Part shown: positions 4,672 through 49,157 of the stretch, one piece after another
Layout: each line of letters opens with the position of its first letter
How positions within the stretch are numbered: position 1 is the first letter of the stretch
Origin: Candidatus Micrarchaeota archaeon
GTDB taxonomy: Archaea; Micrarchaeota; Micrarchaeia; Anstonellales; JAGGVH01
Length of the DNA: 55,697 bases
Assembly: GCA_021158105.1 (NCBI GenBank)
Contig: JAGGVH010000039.1
Location: 1-55,697 of the forward strand
Reading direction: 5' to 3'
Notes under the pieces: model-generated
Seen by the model: the letters and a program-made list of their open reading frames with translations, nothing else
The model's database searches: none
Told to the model about the DNA's origin: nothing
Position numbers and translations under genes: made by a program

Positions 4672-5208
4672 ATGGACCCTTACAAAATACTAAAGAAATA
4701 TTATAATCCTGACTCAGAACTTTATTATTATCTGGTGAAGCACAGTGAAAATGTCATGAGAAAAGCGGTCAACATTGCAGAAAAGGTTAATGCTGACAAG
4801 GAATTTGTCAGAGAGGCGTCAATGCTTCATGATATCGGAATAATAAAAACAAACGAGCCAAGATTTTTTTGTCATGGGAAATACCCATACATCTCCCACG
4901 GATACTTGGGAAGGGAAATGTTAGAAAAGGAAGGTTACCCAAGGCATGGCCTTGTTGCAGAACGGCATGTTGGCGTGTGCATAACAAAGGATGAAATCAT
5001 AAAAAACAGGCTACCGCTGCCGCACAGGGACATGTGCCCGATAACTTTAGAAGAGAAGATTGTTGCATATGCAGACAAGTTTTATTCAAAACGACCTGAT
5101 GAAAGGATAGATTATGAAAAGTCATACGATGAGGTCATAAGCGAAATTGAAAAATATGGAAAGTGGAAGGTTAAAATATTCAATGAATGGCATAAGATGT
5201 TTGAGTAA
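4672..5208 (+). CDS. HD/HDIG domain metal-dependent phosphohydrolase
   Basis: KHSENV, MLHDIG, SHGYLG, AERHVG, IVAYADKF motifs; start refined to MDPYKIL. Confidence 0.88.
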   Translation: MDPYKILKKYYNPDSELYYYLVKHSENVMRKAVNIAEKVNADKEFVREASMLHDIGIIKTNEPRFFCHGKYPYISHGYLGREMLEKEGYPRHGLVAERHVGVCITKDEIIKNRLPLPHRDMCPITLEEKIVAYADKFYSKRPDERIDYEKSYDEVISEIEKYGKWKVKIFNEWHKMFE

Positions 5209-5261
5209 CCTTTTTTAACCTATCCTTTGTATCATTCAATTGTATAATTTAGGGTGATATT

Positions 5262-6668
5262 ATGTATGGCGGGTATACTTATGTAGAACTGAAATATAAG
5301 CCGTCAAAGGATGACTTTATAGTTCTCTTATGGGTTAAAGGCAAAAATAAGATTGAAAAGATTGCTGAAGCGGTTGCCGCAGAAAGTTCAGTGGGCACAT
5401 GGACAAAACTCAGTACAATGAATGACATTGTATTCAAAAATTATCGTGCCCGTGTTTTCAAAATAATCAAGGTTACAAAAAGTTCAGGGTTTATTTATAT
5501 TGCTTATCCATATGAACATTTTGATTCAAAGAACATATTACAGTTTCAGGCCAGTGTCATGGGCAACATATTCGGAATGAAAGAGGTTGACGAATTATAC
5601 ATAATGGACATATCATTCCCTGAGAAGTATCAGAAACAGTTTAAGGGTCCAAAGAATGGTATTGAAGGCATCAGAAAATATGTAGGAACATTAAAAAGCC
5701 GGCGTCCGCACATTGGCACGATTGTCAAACCCAAGGTGGGGTTAACACCTAAAGAGTTTGCAAATGTCGCATACGACGCATGGAGCAATGGACTGGACCT
5801 TGTCAAAGATGACGAGAACCTGGTCGACCAGAAATTTTGTCCGTGGAAGAAGCGGTTTAATGAAGTAACCAAAAAGATGGACAAGGCAGAAAATGAAACC
5901 GGTGAGAAGAAGTTGTATGCCACAAACATTACTGACTCGTCAATCGACCGTATGATTGAACGGTTGGACTATGTTAGGGAGCACGGGCAGAGGATGGTAA
6001 TGTTAGATGTTTATGTCATGGGACTTGCAGCATTGCATGAAATGATTAAGCACACACGAAAGTATAACATATTTGTCCATGCCCACAGGGCAGGGTATGC
6101 TGCACATAACAGAGGAATGTTTGGTGTAAACTTTCAGGTTTATGAGAAATTTTATAGGATAATAGGTGTTGACCAGCTTCACATTGGCACGGGCGTGGGC
6201 AAGATGGAAGGGTCGGCATTGTACGTTAAACGGTTGCACGACATTGCGATAAAAAACAAGGGAGAAGAAAAGTTTTATCTGGGCTCATTAAAGTTCACGT
6301 TTGCCAAACATATTAAACCGTTGTTCCCAGTATCATCGGGCGGGCTTGACCCTGGCATGGTCGATGCTTTGATTGAATTGTTCGGGAAAGATATAGTCAT
6401 ACAGGCAGGCGGAGGTGTGCACGGGCATCCAAACGGTACTGGTGCAGGCGCAAGGGCGTTACGTTATGCTGTTGATTGTGCAATGAAACACATCCCGCTT
6501 CCAAAGGCATCAGAAAAAAATAATGACCTTAAACTTGCACTTAAAAAGTTTGGATATGCTGACCCGAAAGACATTAAAAATGTATTAAAATATGAAAAGA
6601 ACAACAAACAAAAATTAACAAGAGAGGTTAAGATTGGCGGGTTGGCAGAATACCAAAGGATAGTTTAA
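5262..6668 (+). CDS. rbcL: RuBisCO large subunit, form III / III-like
   Basis: AAESSVGTW, GNIFG, VKPKVGL, VKDDEN, HAHRAG, LHIGT..GKMEG, SSGG, QAGGGVHGHP: catalytic residue set present. Confidence 0.95.
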   Translation: MYGGYTYVELKYKPSKDDFIVLLWVKGKNKIEKIAEAVAAESSVGTWTKLSTMNDIVFKNYRARVFKIIKVTKSSGFIYIAYPYEHFDSKNILQFQASVMGNIFGMKEVDELYIMDISFPEKYQKQFKGPKNGIEGIRKYVGTLKSRRPHIGTIVKPKVGLTPKEFANVAYDAWSNGLDLVKDDENLVDQKFCPWKKRFNEVTKKMDKAENETGEKKLYATNITDSSIDRMIERLDYVREHGQRMVMLDVYVMGLAALHEMIKHTRKYNIFVHAHRAGYAAHNRGMFGVNFQVYEKFYRIIGVDQLHIGTGVGKMEGSALYVKRLHDIAIKNKGEEKFYLGSLKFTFAKHIKPLFPVSSGGLDPGMVDALIELFGKDIVIQAGGGVHGHPNGTGAGARALRYAVDCAMKHIPLPKASEKNNDLKLALKKFGYADPKDIKNVLKYEKNNKQKLTREVKIGGLAEYQRIV

Positions 6669-43960: not shown

Positions 43961-44974
43961 CTAAATTTTCTTTATTTTTTCCACATAAATATTACCATCG
44001 TCCTCCTTGACTTCTAAAGTAAACGTATGGCCTATTAGATCTCTTTTCATTAATGCTAACAGCACAGATAACTTCAAATCTTGCGGCAACCTGCTAATCC
44101 TTATAAAACGTAAAAATACATCTTGGGGTATGATTACCTTTCGGTTTCCAAGAAAACCTATAACTTCTCCGTCTTCACAGTTCAATTCAGAAAATTCACC
44201 AACAATCTCATTGTCAGATGGACAATATATCACAACAATCCTTGAATAATTTTTTACATGAATTTCGTTGTTATAATAACTAACATTCTCCAATCTGATT
44301 CTACACCCTGACTTAAAAGAAGGAACATCTTTCTCCCAAACAGTTACTATCATGTTGCCAGTGGAATCTACTATCTTAAACGTCAAGAGCATATGAGTTT
44401 TATTGTTAATTTTATAAGGAACATCTTCTGGATCAGAAGCCACTGTACATTTCAGATAATACTTGTTGTTAGGTTTCATGTCTATAATATTAACAAATTT
44501 CGGTTCTTTCAATACATCCAAACGAGTTTTCTTATTTATGTAAATCTTAGAATACTTGCACAATCCCTTTTTTATCATAACAACTGAACCTAAAATAAGA
44601 TTTTTTATTATACTTTTATCATAACATACAACCATCGTCTTGCCGGTTTCATCTTCAATGTTGAAAGAATATTGTGTATACTCCTTATCATCTTTCTTAA
44701 TAATCACAGGCTTATTTATATGTGTAACAACACCCACAACAGTAGCAAAATATATTCCTGGCAGGATATCTTTTATTTTTATCTTAGTTTCTGACTTGAT
44801 TTTTTCAAAGTATAGAATTTTTATTATGCTATGCTCAGGAATTAGATGGTAGTATTCATTTTTCTTTTTAGATATCATATTGTCAACAATGTTCTTCCCA
44901 AATTTTTTGATTAACATGTTTAATAATATTTTTGTTTCATTATCATAATTCTCCATGACAAAATAATCATACAT
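43961..44974 (-). CDS. OB-fold nucleic-acid-binding protein (RPA-like)
   Basis: Two OB-fold patterns: FNIEDETGKTMVVCYD and FKIVDSTGNMIVTVWE...IRLENV. Confidence 0.8.
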   Translation of the reverse strand: MYDYFVMENYDNETKILLNMLIKKFGKNIVDNMISKKKNEYYHLIPEHSIIKILYFEKIKSETKIKIKDILPGIYFATVVGVVTHINKPVIIKKDDKEYTQYSFNIEDETGKTMVVCYDKSIIKNLILGSVVMIKKGLCKYSKIYINKKTRLDVLKEPKFVNIIDMKPNNKYYLKCTVASDPEDVPYKINNKTHMLLTFKIVDSTGNMIVTVWEKDVPSFKSGCRIRLENVSYYNNEIHVKNYSRIVVIYCPSDNEIVGEFSELNCEDGEVIGFLGNRKVIIPQDVFLRFIRISRLPQDLKLSVLLALMKRDLIGHTFTLEVKEDDGNIYVEKIKKI

Positions 44975-47927: not shown

Positions 47928-48131
47928 ATGAGTATAGCAAAAGTTATTGAAATAATAGGCAAATCTGATAAGAGTTGGGAAGATGCAACAAAAGAAGCTG
48001 TTGAAACTGCATCAAAAACTATCAGAAACATAAAAGGTGTTGAGGTCATAGGACAAACAGCTAATGTCAAAGATGGTAAAATCACTAGTTATAAATCAAC
48101 AGTTAAGATAGTTTTTAAAGTTGAAGAATGA
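47928..48131 (+). CDS. Dodecin-family flavin-binding protein
   Basis: KVIEIIG.S.KSWEDA..EAV..ASKTIRNI, DGKI..Y...VKI.F pattern; GAGGTGA RBS. Confidence 0.92.
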   Translation: MSIAKVIEIIGKSDKSWEDATKEAVETASKTIRNIKGVEVIGQTANVKDGKITSYKSTVKIVFKVEE

Positions 48132-48190: not shown

Positions 48191-48625
48191 TTACTTAACC
48201 TTAATCTTCTTCGCCTTCTTTTCCTTTACAGGTTTTGCCTTTGGAAGATAAACCCTTAAGACGCCATTCTTATATTCTGCCTTTGCCTTGCCGGGAATAA
48301 CCTCAACTGGAAGACTGACCATTCGCGAGAACCCGCTGTGCCTCCTTTCCTGATAATAATAATTCTTTTTCTTCTTTTCAGTTTTAAACTGCGACTCAGC
48401 TGATATCTTGATATGGTCTGGCTCAACTTCAATGTCAATGTCTTCCTTGTTGATCCCTGGCATGTCAGCAACTATTACCAACTCCTTACCCCTATCCTCA
48501 ATATCAAGAAGAGGCGCCTTAAACCCTGTCAAGTCCTCAAAAGAGAATGGTCGCACTGGCCAATTTATAAAATCACTCATCAATTCATTCCACGGGTCCC
48601 ATACTTTAATCCTCTTTTCAGTCAT
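48191..48625 (-). CDS. Small heat-shock protein Hsp20
   Basis: DIEDRGKELVIVADMPG, FSRMVSLP.EV, AEYKNGVLRVYLPK motifs. Confidence 0.95.
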   Translation of the reverse strand: MTEKRIKVWDPWNELMSDFINWPVRPFSFEDLTGFKAPLLDIEDRGKELVIVADMPGINKEDIDIEVEPDHIKISAESQFKTEKKKKNYYYQERRHSGFSRMVSLPVEVIPGKAKAEYKNGVLRVYLPKAKPVKEKKAKKIKVK

Positions 48626-48710
48626 TATACCACCTCAAAAAATTAGTAACACACTATTAAGAATTGAAAAATATTTTAAAGGTTACTGTAGTAGGTCTAA
48701 GTGTGATTTT

Positions 48711-49157
48711 ATGAATTATAAAAAGAATAAACCGTTTGTGATTTATAAGGCCAACAAAAACATTACAGGGTCAGCATTACAGATCGATTTCAATCCTGAT
48801 AAGAAATCTGTTTTTATAGATTGCACCAACCAGAAAACTATCGACAGGTTTGACTGGGACAACAAGATAACATTCAAACTCTCATCATCAGACATTGCAC
48901 AAATATTAAGCGTATTAAGAAATGATGTTCAAACTATTAAACTGTTCCATCAACCTTCAAAAGGAGAATATAAGAGTTCACAGAATATCAAAAATACAGT
49001 GGTCAATTTTTCAAAGACACAAACCGGATTTTCAGCGCGTATCAGTCAACAGACAACTGATAAACTTAAAACAGTAACAATAAACATATCAAAAAGCGAA
49101 GGAGTAATACTAACAATATTATTATCAAAAGCTATTGAAGAGATATATGGATGGTAA
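48711..49157 (+). CDS. Whirly-like ssDNA-binding protein (148 aa)
   Basis: IYK...AL, FDWDNKITFKLSSSDI, LFHQPSKG, ISKSEG.IL...IYGW match plant Whirly motifs from memory; real start 48711, not 48408. Confidence 0.7.
   Translation: MNYKKNKPFVIYKANKNITGSALQIDFNPDKKSVFIDCTNQKTIDRFDWDNKITFKLSSSDIAQILSVLRNDVQTIKLFHQPSKGEYKSSQNIKNTVVNFSKTQTGFSARISQQTTDKLKTVTINISKSEGVILTILLSKAIEEIYGW

What the first reader, a model, noticed from the sequence alone, without database searches (positions are those of the whole stretch)
48711..49157. Archaeal protein with residue-level similarity to plant Whirly proteins
Seen vs plant Why1 as I recall it: VIYKANKNITGSALQID / SIYKGKAALTVE; RFDWDNKITFKLSSSDIAQIL / QYDWSRKQVFSLSVTEIGSII; LFHQPSKG / FFHDPNKG; INISKSEGVILTILLSKAIEEIYGW* / IPVTKAEFAVLVSAFNFVMPYLLGW. 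Established: Whirly (PF08536) is a tetrameric ssDNA-binding family usually described as plant/green-algal organellar. A compact stand-alone homolog in a DPANN archaeon would bear on the family's origin and add a second SSB-type protein besides the RPA-like gene at 43961.
Basis: partly seen in the sequence, partly recalled or inferred. Interest (0 to 1): 0.7.

Follow-up and report, generated by a model that had tools for sequence, protein, structure and literature searches.

The report
Archaeal member of plant Whirly family
[quoted passage not shown] Such prokaryotic and viral relatives are common in sequence databases, but none has been studied.

Summary
Window 48711-49157 (+) is a 148-aa gene whose product matches Pfam Whirly (PF08536) at 41.5 bits (cut-off 23). 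A profile of its homologues hits potato p24/PBF-2 at E 7e-20. Its AlphaFold model (pLDDT 96) has the full beta4-alpha-beta4-alpha Whirly fold, and its best PDB matches are plant Whirly structures (TM 0.74-0.80). The host is a Micrarchaeota (DPANN) MAG.

The gene is single-copy and patchy, found in 31 of 301 genomes of the phylum. It forms a well-supported archaeal clade.

That clade groups with Verrucomicrobiota, Amoeba-type eukaryotic and viral proteins. Plant Whirlies instead share their indel signature, including the KGKAAL hairpin, with homologues from viral or viral-like contigs. The archaeal gene is therefore probably not the plant ancestor, although an AU test does not reject that (p 0.14).

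The most likely function is a homotetrameric, sequence-unspecific ssDNA binder acting as an accessory genome-maintenance factor. This is inferred, not shown. In other Micrarchaeota orders the gene sits just behind a RecJ/HAN-like DHH nuclease, but not in this lineage, and inherited synteny is not excluded.

Pfam already flags these proteins, and a 2024 plant paper used archaeal sequences as an outgroup. This is a new, uncharacterised member of a known family.

The parts
48711..49157 (+). Coding sequence of the 148-aa stand-alone Whirly-domain protein (stop codon included)
   Evidence: ORF and translation. PF08536 at 41.5 bits against a cut-off of 23. Homologues at 54-68% identity in Micrarchaeota MAGs.
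48735..48881 (+). First four-stranded beta-sheet (residues 9-57: strands 9-13, 21-28, 33-43, 53-57)
   Evidence: DSSP on the AlphaFold2 model, block pLDDT 86-98.
48741..48779 (+). Motif IYKANKNITGSAL (residues 11-23), the counterpart of the plant YKGKAAL motif. Y12, K13, A22 and L23 are kept. The hairpin is 5 residues longer, and the plant second lysine aligns with the invariant G20.
   Evidence: HMMER alignment to p24 and AtWHY2. MAFFT alignment with plant and viral sequences. Invariant columns in the archaeal alignment.
48849..48866 (+). FDWDNK motif (residues 47-52). W49 is conserved in at least 90% of 135 family members, plants included.
48885..48917 (+). Helix 1 (residues 59-69)
48933..49091 (+). 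Second four-stranded beta-sheet (residues 75-127: strands 75-80, 93-102, 106-115, 119-127). It includes LFHQPSKG (residues 78-85). H80 is the only column invariant in all 135 homologues and corresponds to the His of the plant FFHDP motif.
49092..49154 (+). C-terminal amphipathic helix (residues 128-146) and terminal G-W. Almost every prokaryotic homologue ends exactly at this Trp. In plants the two helices form the core of the tetramer.
   Evidence: The role of the helices in plants is from PMC3245945.
48626..48710 (.). 85-bp intergenic region shared with the divergently transcribed Hsp20 gene (48191-48625, minus strand). An A/T-rich TATA-like box, AAAAATATTTTAAAGG, lies at about 48667-48682, roughly 30-45 nt upstream of the ATG.
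   Evidence: Read directly from the sequence. Hsp20 assignment. The promoter function is inferred only.

Best explanation
The gene encodes a true but minimal member of the Whirly family (PF08536). It consists of the bare beta4-alpha-beta4-alpha domain, with no targeting peptide and no C-terminal tail.

By homology it most likely assembles through its two helices into a whirligig-shaped homotetramer. That tetramer would bind single-stranded DNA without sequence specificity along the edges of the beta-sheets.

In this Micrarchaeote it would act as an accessory, dispensable genome-maintenance factor. It would coat or protect ssDNA at resected ends, gaps or stalled forks, working beside the OB-fold SSB/RPA-like protein rather than as the replicative SSB.

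What is shown: family membership by sequence and by predicted fold, conservation under constraint within a Micrarchaeota clade, and patchy single-copy distribution.

What is inferred: the tetramer, ssDNA binding, and a role in repair or recombination. My odds are about 0.93 that it is a genuine Whirly homologue, and about 0.6 for the whole statement including the mechanism.
For: Family membership:
- PF08536 matches above the gathering score.
- Only plant Whirlies are hit in PDB by sequence, and the profile of homologues hits p24 at E 6.9e-20.
- The model has pLDDT 96.3 and all eight strands and two helices.
- Foldseek's top matches are p24/WHY1/2/3/StWhy2 (TM 0.74-0.80). T. brucei MRP1/2 come next (0.65-0.75) and Pur-alpha is far weaker (0.33-0.43).
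- The family-wide conserved positions H80, W49, E130 and W148 are shared with plants.

Constraint:
- 48 of 148 columns are invariant among 7 Micrarchaeota proteins at 54-68% identity.
- The Micrarchaeota clade is monophyletic at 99/96 support.

Accessory status:
- One copy per genome, in 9 of 61 genomes of the order and 31 of 301 of the phylum.
- The protein is basic (pI 9.7; 22 K+R against 13 D+E).

DNA-metabolism context of relatives:
- In 15 of 25 Whirly-bearing Micrarchaeota of other orders, a DHH/DHHA1 nuclease lies one or two genes upstream on the same strand. Eleven are RecJ/HAN-like and four NrnA-like. Gaps range from a 32-bp overlap to 38 bp in 8 of the 9 directly adjacent pairs. In three genomes an HhH-GPD glycosylase sits in between.
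- A homologue carrying the KGKAAL motif lies between RecA and a PolA/DnaG module.
- An IMG/VR viral homologue lies beside a 3'-5' exonuclease and an AAA ATPase.

Plant mechanism:
- Tetramer with a helical core, ssDNA stacked between beta-sheets, little sequence specificity (PMC3245945).
Against: - There is no biochemical, expression or structural data for any archaeal Whirly, and no RNA runs hold this locus.
- The tools fold single chains only, so the tetramer was not modelled.
- In this window the neighbours are Hsp20, dodecin and PAC2, which say nothing about DNA metabolism. The three DHH genes of this genome lie on other contigs.
- DHH linkage is 0 of 9 in the window's own order.
- Where DHH linkage exists, other neighbours are about as conserved: a Trm1-like gene in 15 of 25 loci, TFB in 11 of 25 and a TrmB-like gene in 11 of 25. 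The pairing may therefore be inherited synteny.
- Fold relatives MRP1/2 and jumbo-phage ChmC bind RNA.
Confidence: 0.6

Rival explanations
1. It is mainly an RNA-binding protein, acting as an RNA chaperone, annealer or mRNA-binding tetramer. It would work like kinetoplastid MRP1/MRP2 or jumbo-phage ChmC rather than on DNA.
For: - MRP1/2 are the second-best structural matches (TM 0.65-0.75), and the family profile reaches MRP1 at E 0.0046.
- ChmC is a Whirly-fold homotetramer that binds RNA (Kd 58 nM) better than DNA (184 nM) (bioRxiv 10.1101/2023.09.22.559000).
- The same paper cites maize WHY1 as an RNA- and DNA-binding protein.
Against: - Sequence and fold are clearly closer to the ssDNA-binding plant proteins than to MRP1/2.
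- Relatives sit beside DNA enzymes (RecJ-like DHH, HhH-GPD, RecA, PolA, primase, 3'-5' exonuclease), not RNA-processing genes.
Confidence: 0.15
2. It is an abundant nucleoid-architectural protein that coats and compacts the chromosome, as proposed for WHIRLY1 in monocot chloroplast nucleoids.
For: - The protein is small, basic (pI 9.7) and stand-alone.
- Plant WHIRLY1 is described as an architectural nucleoid-associated protein comparable to HU or Dps (PMC9070903).
- The promoter region is shared with Hsp20, a stress gene.
Against: - It is present in only about 10% of genomes of the phylum. That is odd for a core chromatin protein.
- It lacks the KGKAAL second lysine that drives higher-order assembly and cooperative coating in StWHY2.
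- The Hsp20 adjacency is not conserved even within the genus.
Confidence: 0.1
3. It is of viral or mobile-element origin and serves a virus, or acts as a nucleic-acid sensor in an anti-virus system, rather than in host genome maintenance.
For: - Many family members lie on viral contigs.
- The distribution among hosts is patchy.
- sPC4/Whirly-fold domains serve as presumed nucleic-acid sensors in Shedu.
- One same-order genome (G005) carries a divergent copy that falls outside the archaeal clade.
Against: - The window gene lies among housekeeping genes, with no integrase, capsid or defence genes beside it.
- Its GC content (0.315) is within the range of its neighbours (0.30-0.41).
- The Micrarchaeota proteins form one clade at 99/96 support, and the window's order groups within it. 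This is consistent with vertical descent plus losses.
- There is no PHROG match and no match in the phage genome collection.
Confidence: 0.05
4. It is a sequence-specific transcription factor, as PBF-2/p24 was first described.
For: The Pfam family name is 'Whirly transcription factor'. Plant Whirlies bind promoter elements in single-stranded form (PMC9070903).
Against: - The structural work shows binding with little sequence specificity.
- Archaeal transcription uses TBP/TFB with wHTH-type regulators.
- No conserved target gene lies next to it.
Confidence: 0.04

Closest known systems
Plant organellar Whirly proteins (StWhy1/PBF-2 p24, StWHY2, AtWHY1/2/3; Pfam PF08536; PDB 1L3A, 3N1H, 4KOO, 4KOP, 4KOQ)
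   Same: - The same Pfam family, matched above the gathering score.
- The same beta4-alpha-beta4-alpha fold (TM 0.74-0.80).
- Shared motifs: Y-K...A-L, (F/Y)DW..K, FH(D/Q)P.K, the helix-start Glu and the terminal G-W.
   Different: - No transit peptide and no C-terminal extension.
- The beta1-beta2 hairpin is 5-6 residues longer, with Gly in place of the KGKAAL second lysine (the 24-mer switch).
- It lacks the roughly 14-residue insert between beta2 and beta3.
- Identity to the plant proteins is about 20%.
- The host is archaeal, and the function is untested.
Uncharacterised prokaryotic and viral Whirly-family proteins (Verrucomicrobiota such as Haloferula chungangensis and Akkermansiaceae MAGs; IMG/VR contigs; UniProt A0A6J5NR37 'Whirly transcription factor [uncultured Caudovirales phage]')
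   Same: - Stand-alone proteins of about 145-190 aa that end at G-W.
- The Verrucomicrobiota and 'other' viral clades share the long YK.NK...G.A hairpin and group with the archaeal clade at 100/93 support.
   Different: - Only 29-35% identity.
- Different gene contexts.
- Some viral forms carry a Cys-rich insert of 20-40 residues or the plant-like KGKAAL hairpin.
[quoted passage not shown]
   Same: A Whirly-type fold (TM 0.65-0.75), and a weak profile match (E 0.0046).
   Different: A mitochondrial heterotetramer that anneals RNA. There is no significant single-sequence similarity.
Jumbo-phage ChmC (PhiPA3 gp61)
   Same: A Whirly-fold protein outside plants, shown experimentally to be a homotetramer that binds single-stranded nucleic acid.
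   Different: - It has no detectable sequence similarity to Whirly proteins and is built from beta3-alpha repeats.
- It prefers RNA.
- It has a disordered condensate-forming tail.
Pur-alpha / PC4-like superfamily (PDB 3K44, 8CHT)
   Same: The beta-beta-beta-beta-alpha repeat architecture (PMC7549692).
   Different: Only weak structural matches (TM 0.33-0.43), no tetrameric whirligig, and a different family.
OB-fold SSB/RPA (functional analogue; candidate at window 43961-44974)
   Same: The presumed activity, which is coating ssDNA.
   Different: An unrelated fold. In most organisms this is the essential replicative protein, whereas Whirly is present in only about 10% of Micrarchaeota.

Membership tests
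Whirly (Pfam PF08536) | Sequence match to the family HMM above the curated gathering score | tested here: met
   41.5 bits against a cut-off of 23, E 1.5e-10, covering profile positions 35-134 of 136. The whole-genome scan gives the same result.
Whirly (Pfam PF08536) | Whirly domain fold: two four-stranded antiparallel beta-sheets and two alpha-helices (beta4-alpha-beta4-alpha) | tested here: met
   The AlphaFold2 model has pLDDT 96.3 and exactly this order of elements. The best PDB matches are all plant Whirly structures, at TM 0.74-0.80. This rests on a predicted structure, not a solved one.
Whirly (Pfam PF08536) | Homotetramer with a helical core (whirligig) | not testable with these tools
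   Structure prediction folds one chain only. Both helices are present, and the C-terminal helix is strongly hydrophobic (VILTILLSKAIEEIYGW).
Whirly (Pfam PF08536) | [quoted passage not shown] | tested here: not met
   The archaeal sequence is YKANKNITGSAL. The Y-K and A-L residues are kept, but the second lysine aligns with the invariant G20 of a 5-residue-longer hairpin. This motif defines the plant subfamily rather than PF08536 as a whole, because the Verrucomicrobiota, Amoeba-type and several viral-contig members examined lack it too.
Whirly (Pfam PF08536) | High-affinity, sequence-unspecific binding of single-stranded DNA | not testable with these tools
   Needs EMSA or fluorescence polarisation with purified protein.
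Whirly (Pfam PF08536) | Family-wide conserved residues (DW, FH.P, helix-2 Glu, terminal GW) | tested here: met
   H80 is invariant, and W49, D61 and E130 are at least 90% conserved in 135 homologues. H, W, E and the terminal W are also present in p24 and AtWHY2.
Plant organellar Whirly subfamily | N-terminal organelle transit peptide, the beta2-beta3 insert and a C-terminal extension beyond G-W | tested here: not met
   The protein starts 8 residues before strand 1 and ends at W148. The roughly 14-residue plant insert is absent.
MRP1/MRP2 (kinetoplastid RNA-binding) | Significant sequence similarity to the MRP family, and a heterotetramer of two paralogues | tested here: not met
   No Pfam hit other than Whirly passes its cut-off. 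There is only a profile E of 0.0046 to MRP1, and the genome carries a single copy.
Pur-alpha / PUR repeat | PUR repeats with a close structural match | tested here: not met
   TM is only 0.33-0.43, and there is no PUR Pfam hit.

The most novel reading that the evidence does not exclude
Micrarchaeota (and other DPANN) Whirly proteins are the dedicated ssDNA-binding partner of a stripped-down RecJ/HAN-type DHH nuclease, in some lineages together with an HhH-GPD glycosylase. Together they would form an undescribed archaeal end-processing or repair module, in which a Whirly tetramer plays the part that OB-fold SSB plays for bacterial RecJ. In some lineages the Whirly protein would be recruited to the replisome through an N-terminal PIP-like motif on a long disordered linker. 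More broadly, Whirly would be an ancient prokaryotic and viral ssDNA-binding module. Plants would have obtained theirs from the KGKAAL-bearing, viral-type branch, not from archaea.
Probability: 0.3. Interest if true: 0.6.

Novelty: new member of a known kind. Interest (0 to 1): 0.4.

Why it matters
Reviews and gene-family papers still call Whirly proteins plant-specific or 'unique to plants' (PMC9070903, PMC11359715). This gene is a clean example showing that the family also exists in archaea as a bare 148-residue domain. It belongs to a large uncharacterised radiation in DPANN archaea, PVC bacteria, viruses and amoebae.

A minimal archaeal version would be a convenient model for several questions: what the core Whirly domain does without plant-specific additions, how a non-OB-fold ssDNA binder is used next to RPA in a reduced genome, and where the plant organellar proteins came from.

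For this particular window the gain is limited. The gene context is uninformative, databases already flag the domain, and no function has been tested.

Tried and rejected
1. The longer TTG start at 48408 was rejected. That frame overlaps Hsp20 on the other strand and is not matched by homologues.

2. Conserved neighbours of the window gene. Only PAC2 is shared, and only within the genus. Hsp20 and dodecin adjacency is not conserved.

3. DHH-nuclease linkage as proof of function. The linkage is real in other orders (15 of 25) but absent in the window's order (0 of 9). It is no more conserved than the Trm1-like, TFB and TrmB-like neighbours, so it was downgraded to a lead.

4. Complementary distribution with the OB-fold SSB/RPA-like protein. 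That protein evolves too fast for single-sequence detection (found in 23 of 61 genomes), so the test was inconclusive.

5. 'The archaeal clade is sister to plants.' The best tree does not show this (three branches at 98/90 or better lie between them), and neither does the indel pattern. However, the AU test does not reject it (p 0.138).

6. Phage databases. There is no PHROG family and no tblastn hit in INPHARED genomes, although IMG/VR and BFVD do hold homologues.

7. Conserved context in Verrucomicrobiota, checked from one reference locus (L052). Nothing was shared.

8. Broad alignments (A2, A3, A5) were too divergent for pattern-based locus searches.

9. RNA-seq evidence. Only DNA runs from hydrothermal-vent metagenomes hold the locus.

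10. Two encoding-contig look-ups with inexact viral ORF borders found nothing.

Full report
**The gene**

Window 48711-49157 (+) is an ATG-to-TAA ORF of 148 codons. The mechanical ORF list extends it to a TTG at 48408. That extension overlaps the Hsp20 gene on the opposite strand (48191-48625).

The 85-bp spacer to the divergent Hsp20 gene contains an A/T-rich TATA-like box, AAAAATATTTTAAAGG, about 30-45 nt upstream of the ATG. The promoter role is inferred. Downstream, a PAC2 gene converges with a 4-bp gap. GC content is 0.315, within the range of the neighbours.

**Is it Whirly?**

Yes, by every test available.

- Pfam PF08536 scores 41.5 bits against a gathering cut-off of 23 (E 1.5e-10). 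The next hits are far below their cut-offs. NCBIfam has nothing relevant.
- phmmer against all PDB chains returns only plant Whirly proteins below E 0.03.
- A profile built from 135 homologues hits potato p24/PBF-2 at 6.9e-20, AtWHY2 at 3.8e-18 and StWhy2 at 3.4e-17. T. brucei MRP1 is a distant seventh at 0.0046.
- With that alignment, AlphaFold2 gives pLDDT 96.3 and pTM 0.88. The element order is four strands, a helix, four strands and a long C-terminal helix. This is the composition of the Whirly domain as described for the plant proteins (PMC3245945).
- Foldseek against PDB ranks p24, AtWHY1/2/3 and StWhy2 first (E 6.5e-9 to 7e-7, TM 0.74-0.80). MRP1/MRP2 follow (TM 0.65-0.75), and Pur-alpha is far behind (TM 0.33-0.43).

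**How it differs from plant Whirlies**

The archaeal protein is the bare domain, with no transit peptide and nothing after the terminal Gly-Trp.

In the first sheet the plant motif YKGKAAL reads YKANKNITGSAL. The hairpin is five residues longer. The second lysine, K67 of StWHY2, aligns with a Gly that is invariant in the archaeal group. In StWHY2 that lysine is needed for 24-mer assembly, cooperative binding to long ssDNA and protection against DNA damage (PMC3245945).

The roughly 14-residue plant insert between strands 2 and 3 is absent.

Positions conserved across the whole family are kept: H80 of FH(D/Q)P, W49 of DW, E130 at the start of helix 2 and the C-terminal W.

**Host and distribution**

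The closest proteins (54-68% identity, one at 99%) come from Candidatus Micrarchaeota/Micrarchaeia MAGs. The window's genome is 0.96 Mb and about 89% complete. The locus is found in hydrothermal-vent metagenomes.

The gene is single-copy and patchy:
- 9 of 61 genomes of the order carry it (5 of 29 genera).
- 31 of 301 genomes of the phylum carry it. That is 20 of 129 genera, and 17 of 176 high-quality genomes.

Such a distribution fits an accessory function, not the essential replicative SSB. An OB-fold gene with weak SSB/RPA similarity lies at 43961-44974. It evolves too fast for a clean presence/absence comparison.

**The wider family**

A full HMMER scan of 1.84 billion cluster representatives finds 239 clusters at E <= 1e-3. 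Most are stand-alone proteins of about 145-190 residues.

- A pattern scan of GTDB species genomes recovered 10 Micrarchaeota loci, one Phycisphaerae locus and about 70 Verrucomicrobiota loci. The last group includes the cultured Haloferula chungangensis.
- One representative is from Amoeba proteus and has an N-terminal presequence-like extension.
- Others lie on IMG/VR viral contigs of 40-180 kb.
- One carries an exact KGKAAL motif. It sits between RecA and a PolA (UDG, intein)/DnaG-primase module on a 25-29-kb contig.
- A viral locus places the gene beside a 3'-5' exonuclease and an AAA ATPase.
- BFVD's best structural match is a UniProt entry already named 'Whirly transcription factor [uncultured Caudovirales phage]'.
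- PHROGs and the INPHARED phage genomes give nothing.

**Phylogeny**

In a careful IQ-TREE analysis (78 sequences, 163 columns), the Micrarchaeota proteins form one clade at 99/96 support. That clade groups at 100/93 with Verrucomicrobiota, the Amoeba-type eukaryotic clade and a largely viral clade.

The three plant sequences attach on the other side, among homologues of the 'YKG' type from viral or viral-like contigs. They are separated from the archaeal clade by three branches with support of 98/90 or better.

The indel pattern agrees. Plants share the short KGKAAL-type hairpin and an insert between strands 2 and 3 with those viral-type proteins. The archaeal, verrucomicrobial and amoebal proteins share the long hairpin and lack the insert.

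An AU test does not reject a tree that forces plants and Micrarchaeota together (delta lnL 20.3, p 0.138). The deep topology is therefore suggestive, not settled. One same-order genome (G005) has a divergent copy outside the archaeal clade.

**Gene context as a clue to function**

Around the window gene nothing is conserved beyond the genus.

In other Micrarchaeota orders, however, 15 of 25 Whirly-bearing genomes have a DHH/DHHA1 phosphoesterase one or two genes upstream on the same strand:
- It is directly adjacent in nine, and separated only by a 370-bp stretch holding a doubtful opposite-strand ORF in a tenth (L120). In 8 of the 9 adjacent pairs the spacing runs from a 32-bp overlap to a 38-bp gap.
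- Eleven are RecJ-family-like. Their best NCBIfam matches are HAN, archaeal RecJ and recJ, all below equivalog cut-offs. Four are NrnA-like.
- In three genomes an HhH-GPD glycosylase sits between the two genes.

This fits an ssDNA-processing role. The caveat is that a Trm1-like gene (15 of 25), TFB (11 of 25) and a TrmB-like regulator (11 of 25) are about as conserved in the same neighbourhood. Inherited synteny in compact genomes is therefore not excluded. The window's own order has lost the linkage (0 of 9), and its three DHH genes lie on other contigs.

**Mechanism**

The best-supported reading is a homotetrameric, sequence-unspecific ssDNA binder acting as an accessory genome-maintenance factor. 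This is an inference from homology and from the contexts of relatives.

The main rival is RNA binding. MRP1/2 anneal RNA, and jumbo-phage ChmC is a Whirly-fold homotetramer that prefers RNA. A nucleoid-architectural role, a viral or defence role and a transcription-factor role are less likely, for the reasons given under rivals.

**Novelty**

No paper on archaeal or bacterial Whirly-family proteins was found. Even so, their existence is on record:
- Pfam hits are precomputed for them.
- A 2026 paper speaks of the Whirly/Pur-alpha family across three domains.

Earlier notes of this scan reached the same conclusions on other DPANN, PVC and phage genomes. I treat these as leads. I independently reproduced the family assignment, the phage homologues and the partial RecJ/HAN pairing.

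Verdict: a real and correctly interpreted finding. It is a new, uncharacterised member of a known family, of moderate interest.

Noticed in passing
L001:1462-2511 (-), L002:1456-2271 (-), L013:3749-4489 (+), L014:3863-4432 (+); also P0009, P0011: Some Micrarchaeota Whirly proteins carry a 40-200-residue Pro/Gln/Ser-rich N-terminal extension. It starts with a conserved short motif (KKIYPSL[ST]SF, KIQPTLNQF, KTPTLNSI) that resembles a PCNA-interacting (PIP-box-like) peptide. This could be a recruitment handle analogous to the bacterial SSB tail. The window protein lacks it.
   Followed up: partly
L121:2074-4354, L130:3956-6145, L124:1769-3496: One Micrarchaeota family has the same-strand string DHH/DHHA1 (NrnA-like) - HhH-GPD base-excision glycosylase - Whirly.
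   Followed up: partly
L094-L099 (IMG/VR contigs), Whirly genes at about 5000-5560: Viral Whirly homologues carry a 20-40-residue insert between strands 2 and 3, and some hold Cys pairs (zinc-ribbon-like). They sit in a conserved module with a ClpP-like protease, a 3'-5' exonuclease, a weak HIRAN-like hit and an AAA ATPase.
   Followed up: partly
L091:6001-6459 and L092:6001-6459: A 152-aa Whirly protein with an exact plant-type KGKAAL motif lies between RecA and a PolA (UDG domain, intein)/DnaG-primase module. An IS605 TnpA/TnpB pair is inserted nearby. In the tree it is among the sequences nearest to plant Whirlies.
   Followed up: partly
P0151 (Amoeba proteus transcript) and clade P0032, P0088, P0141, P0152, P0078, P0095, P0112: A eukaryotic, non-plant Whirly clade has presequence-like N-termini and a C-terminal G-F instead of G-W. 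It is placed next to the Verrucomicrobiota clade (85/89), not next to plants.
   Followed up: no
L005:1423-1860 (+) (genome G005, same order as the window): A very divergent Whirly copy (identical to P0113) sits on a long branch and falls outside the Micrarchaeota clade. It may be a separate acquisition.
   Followed up: no
window 43961-44974 (-): A two-OB-fold SSB/RPA-like protein evolves very fast: 48% and 41% identity within the genus, and about 20-27% within the order. The copy in one same-genus genome reads through two in-frame stops.
   Followed up: partly
window 47928-48131 (+) and 48191-48625 (-): A dodecin gene (90.7 bits) and an Hsp20 gene lie immediately upstream. Hsp20 shares the 85-bp promoter spacer with the Whirly gene, which hints at stress co-regulation. 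The adjacency is not conserved in the genus.
   Followed up: partly
L090:5001-5483 (NCBI assembly contig of 185 kb): A Whirly homologue (P0027) lies in a long run of co-directional small unknown genes with a LAGLIDADG-like hit, DUF1508, RNase T and glycosyltransferases. This looks like a large virus or jumbo phage inside a highly fragmented assembly.
   Followed up: no
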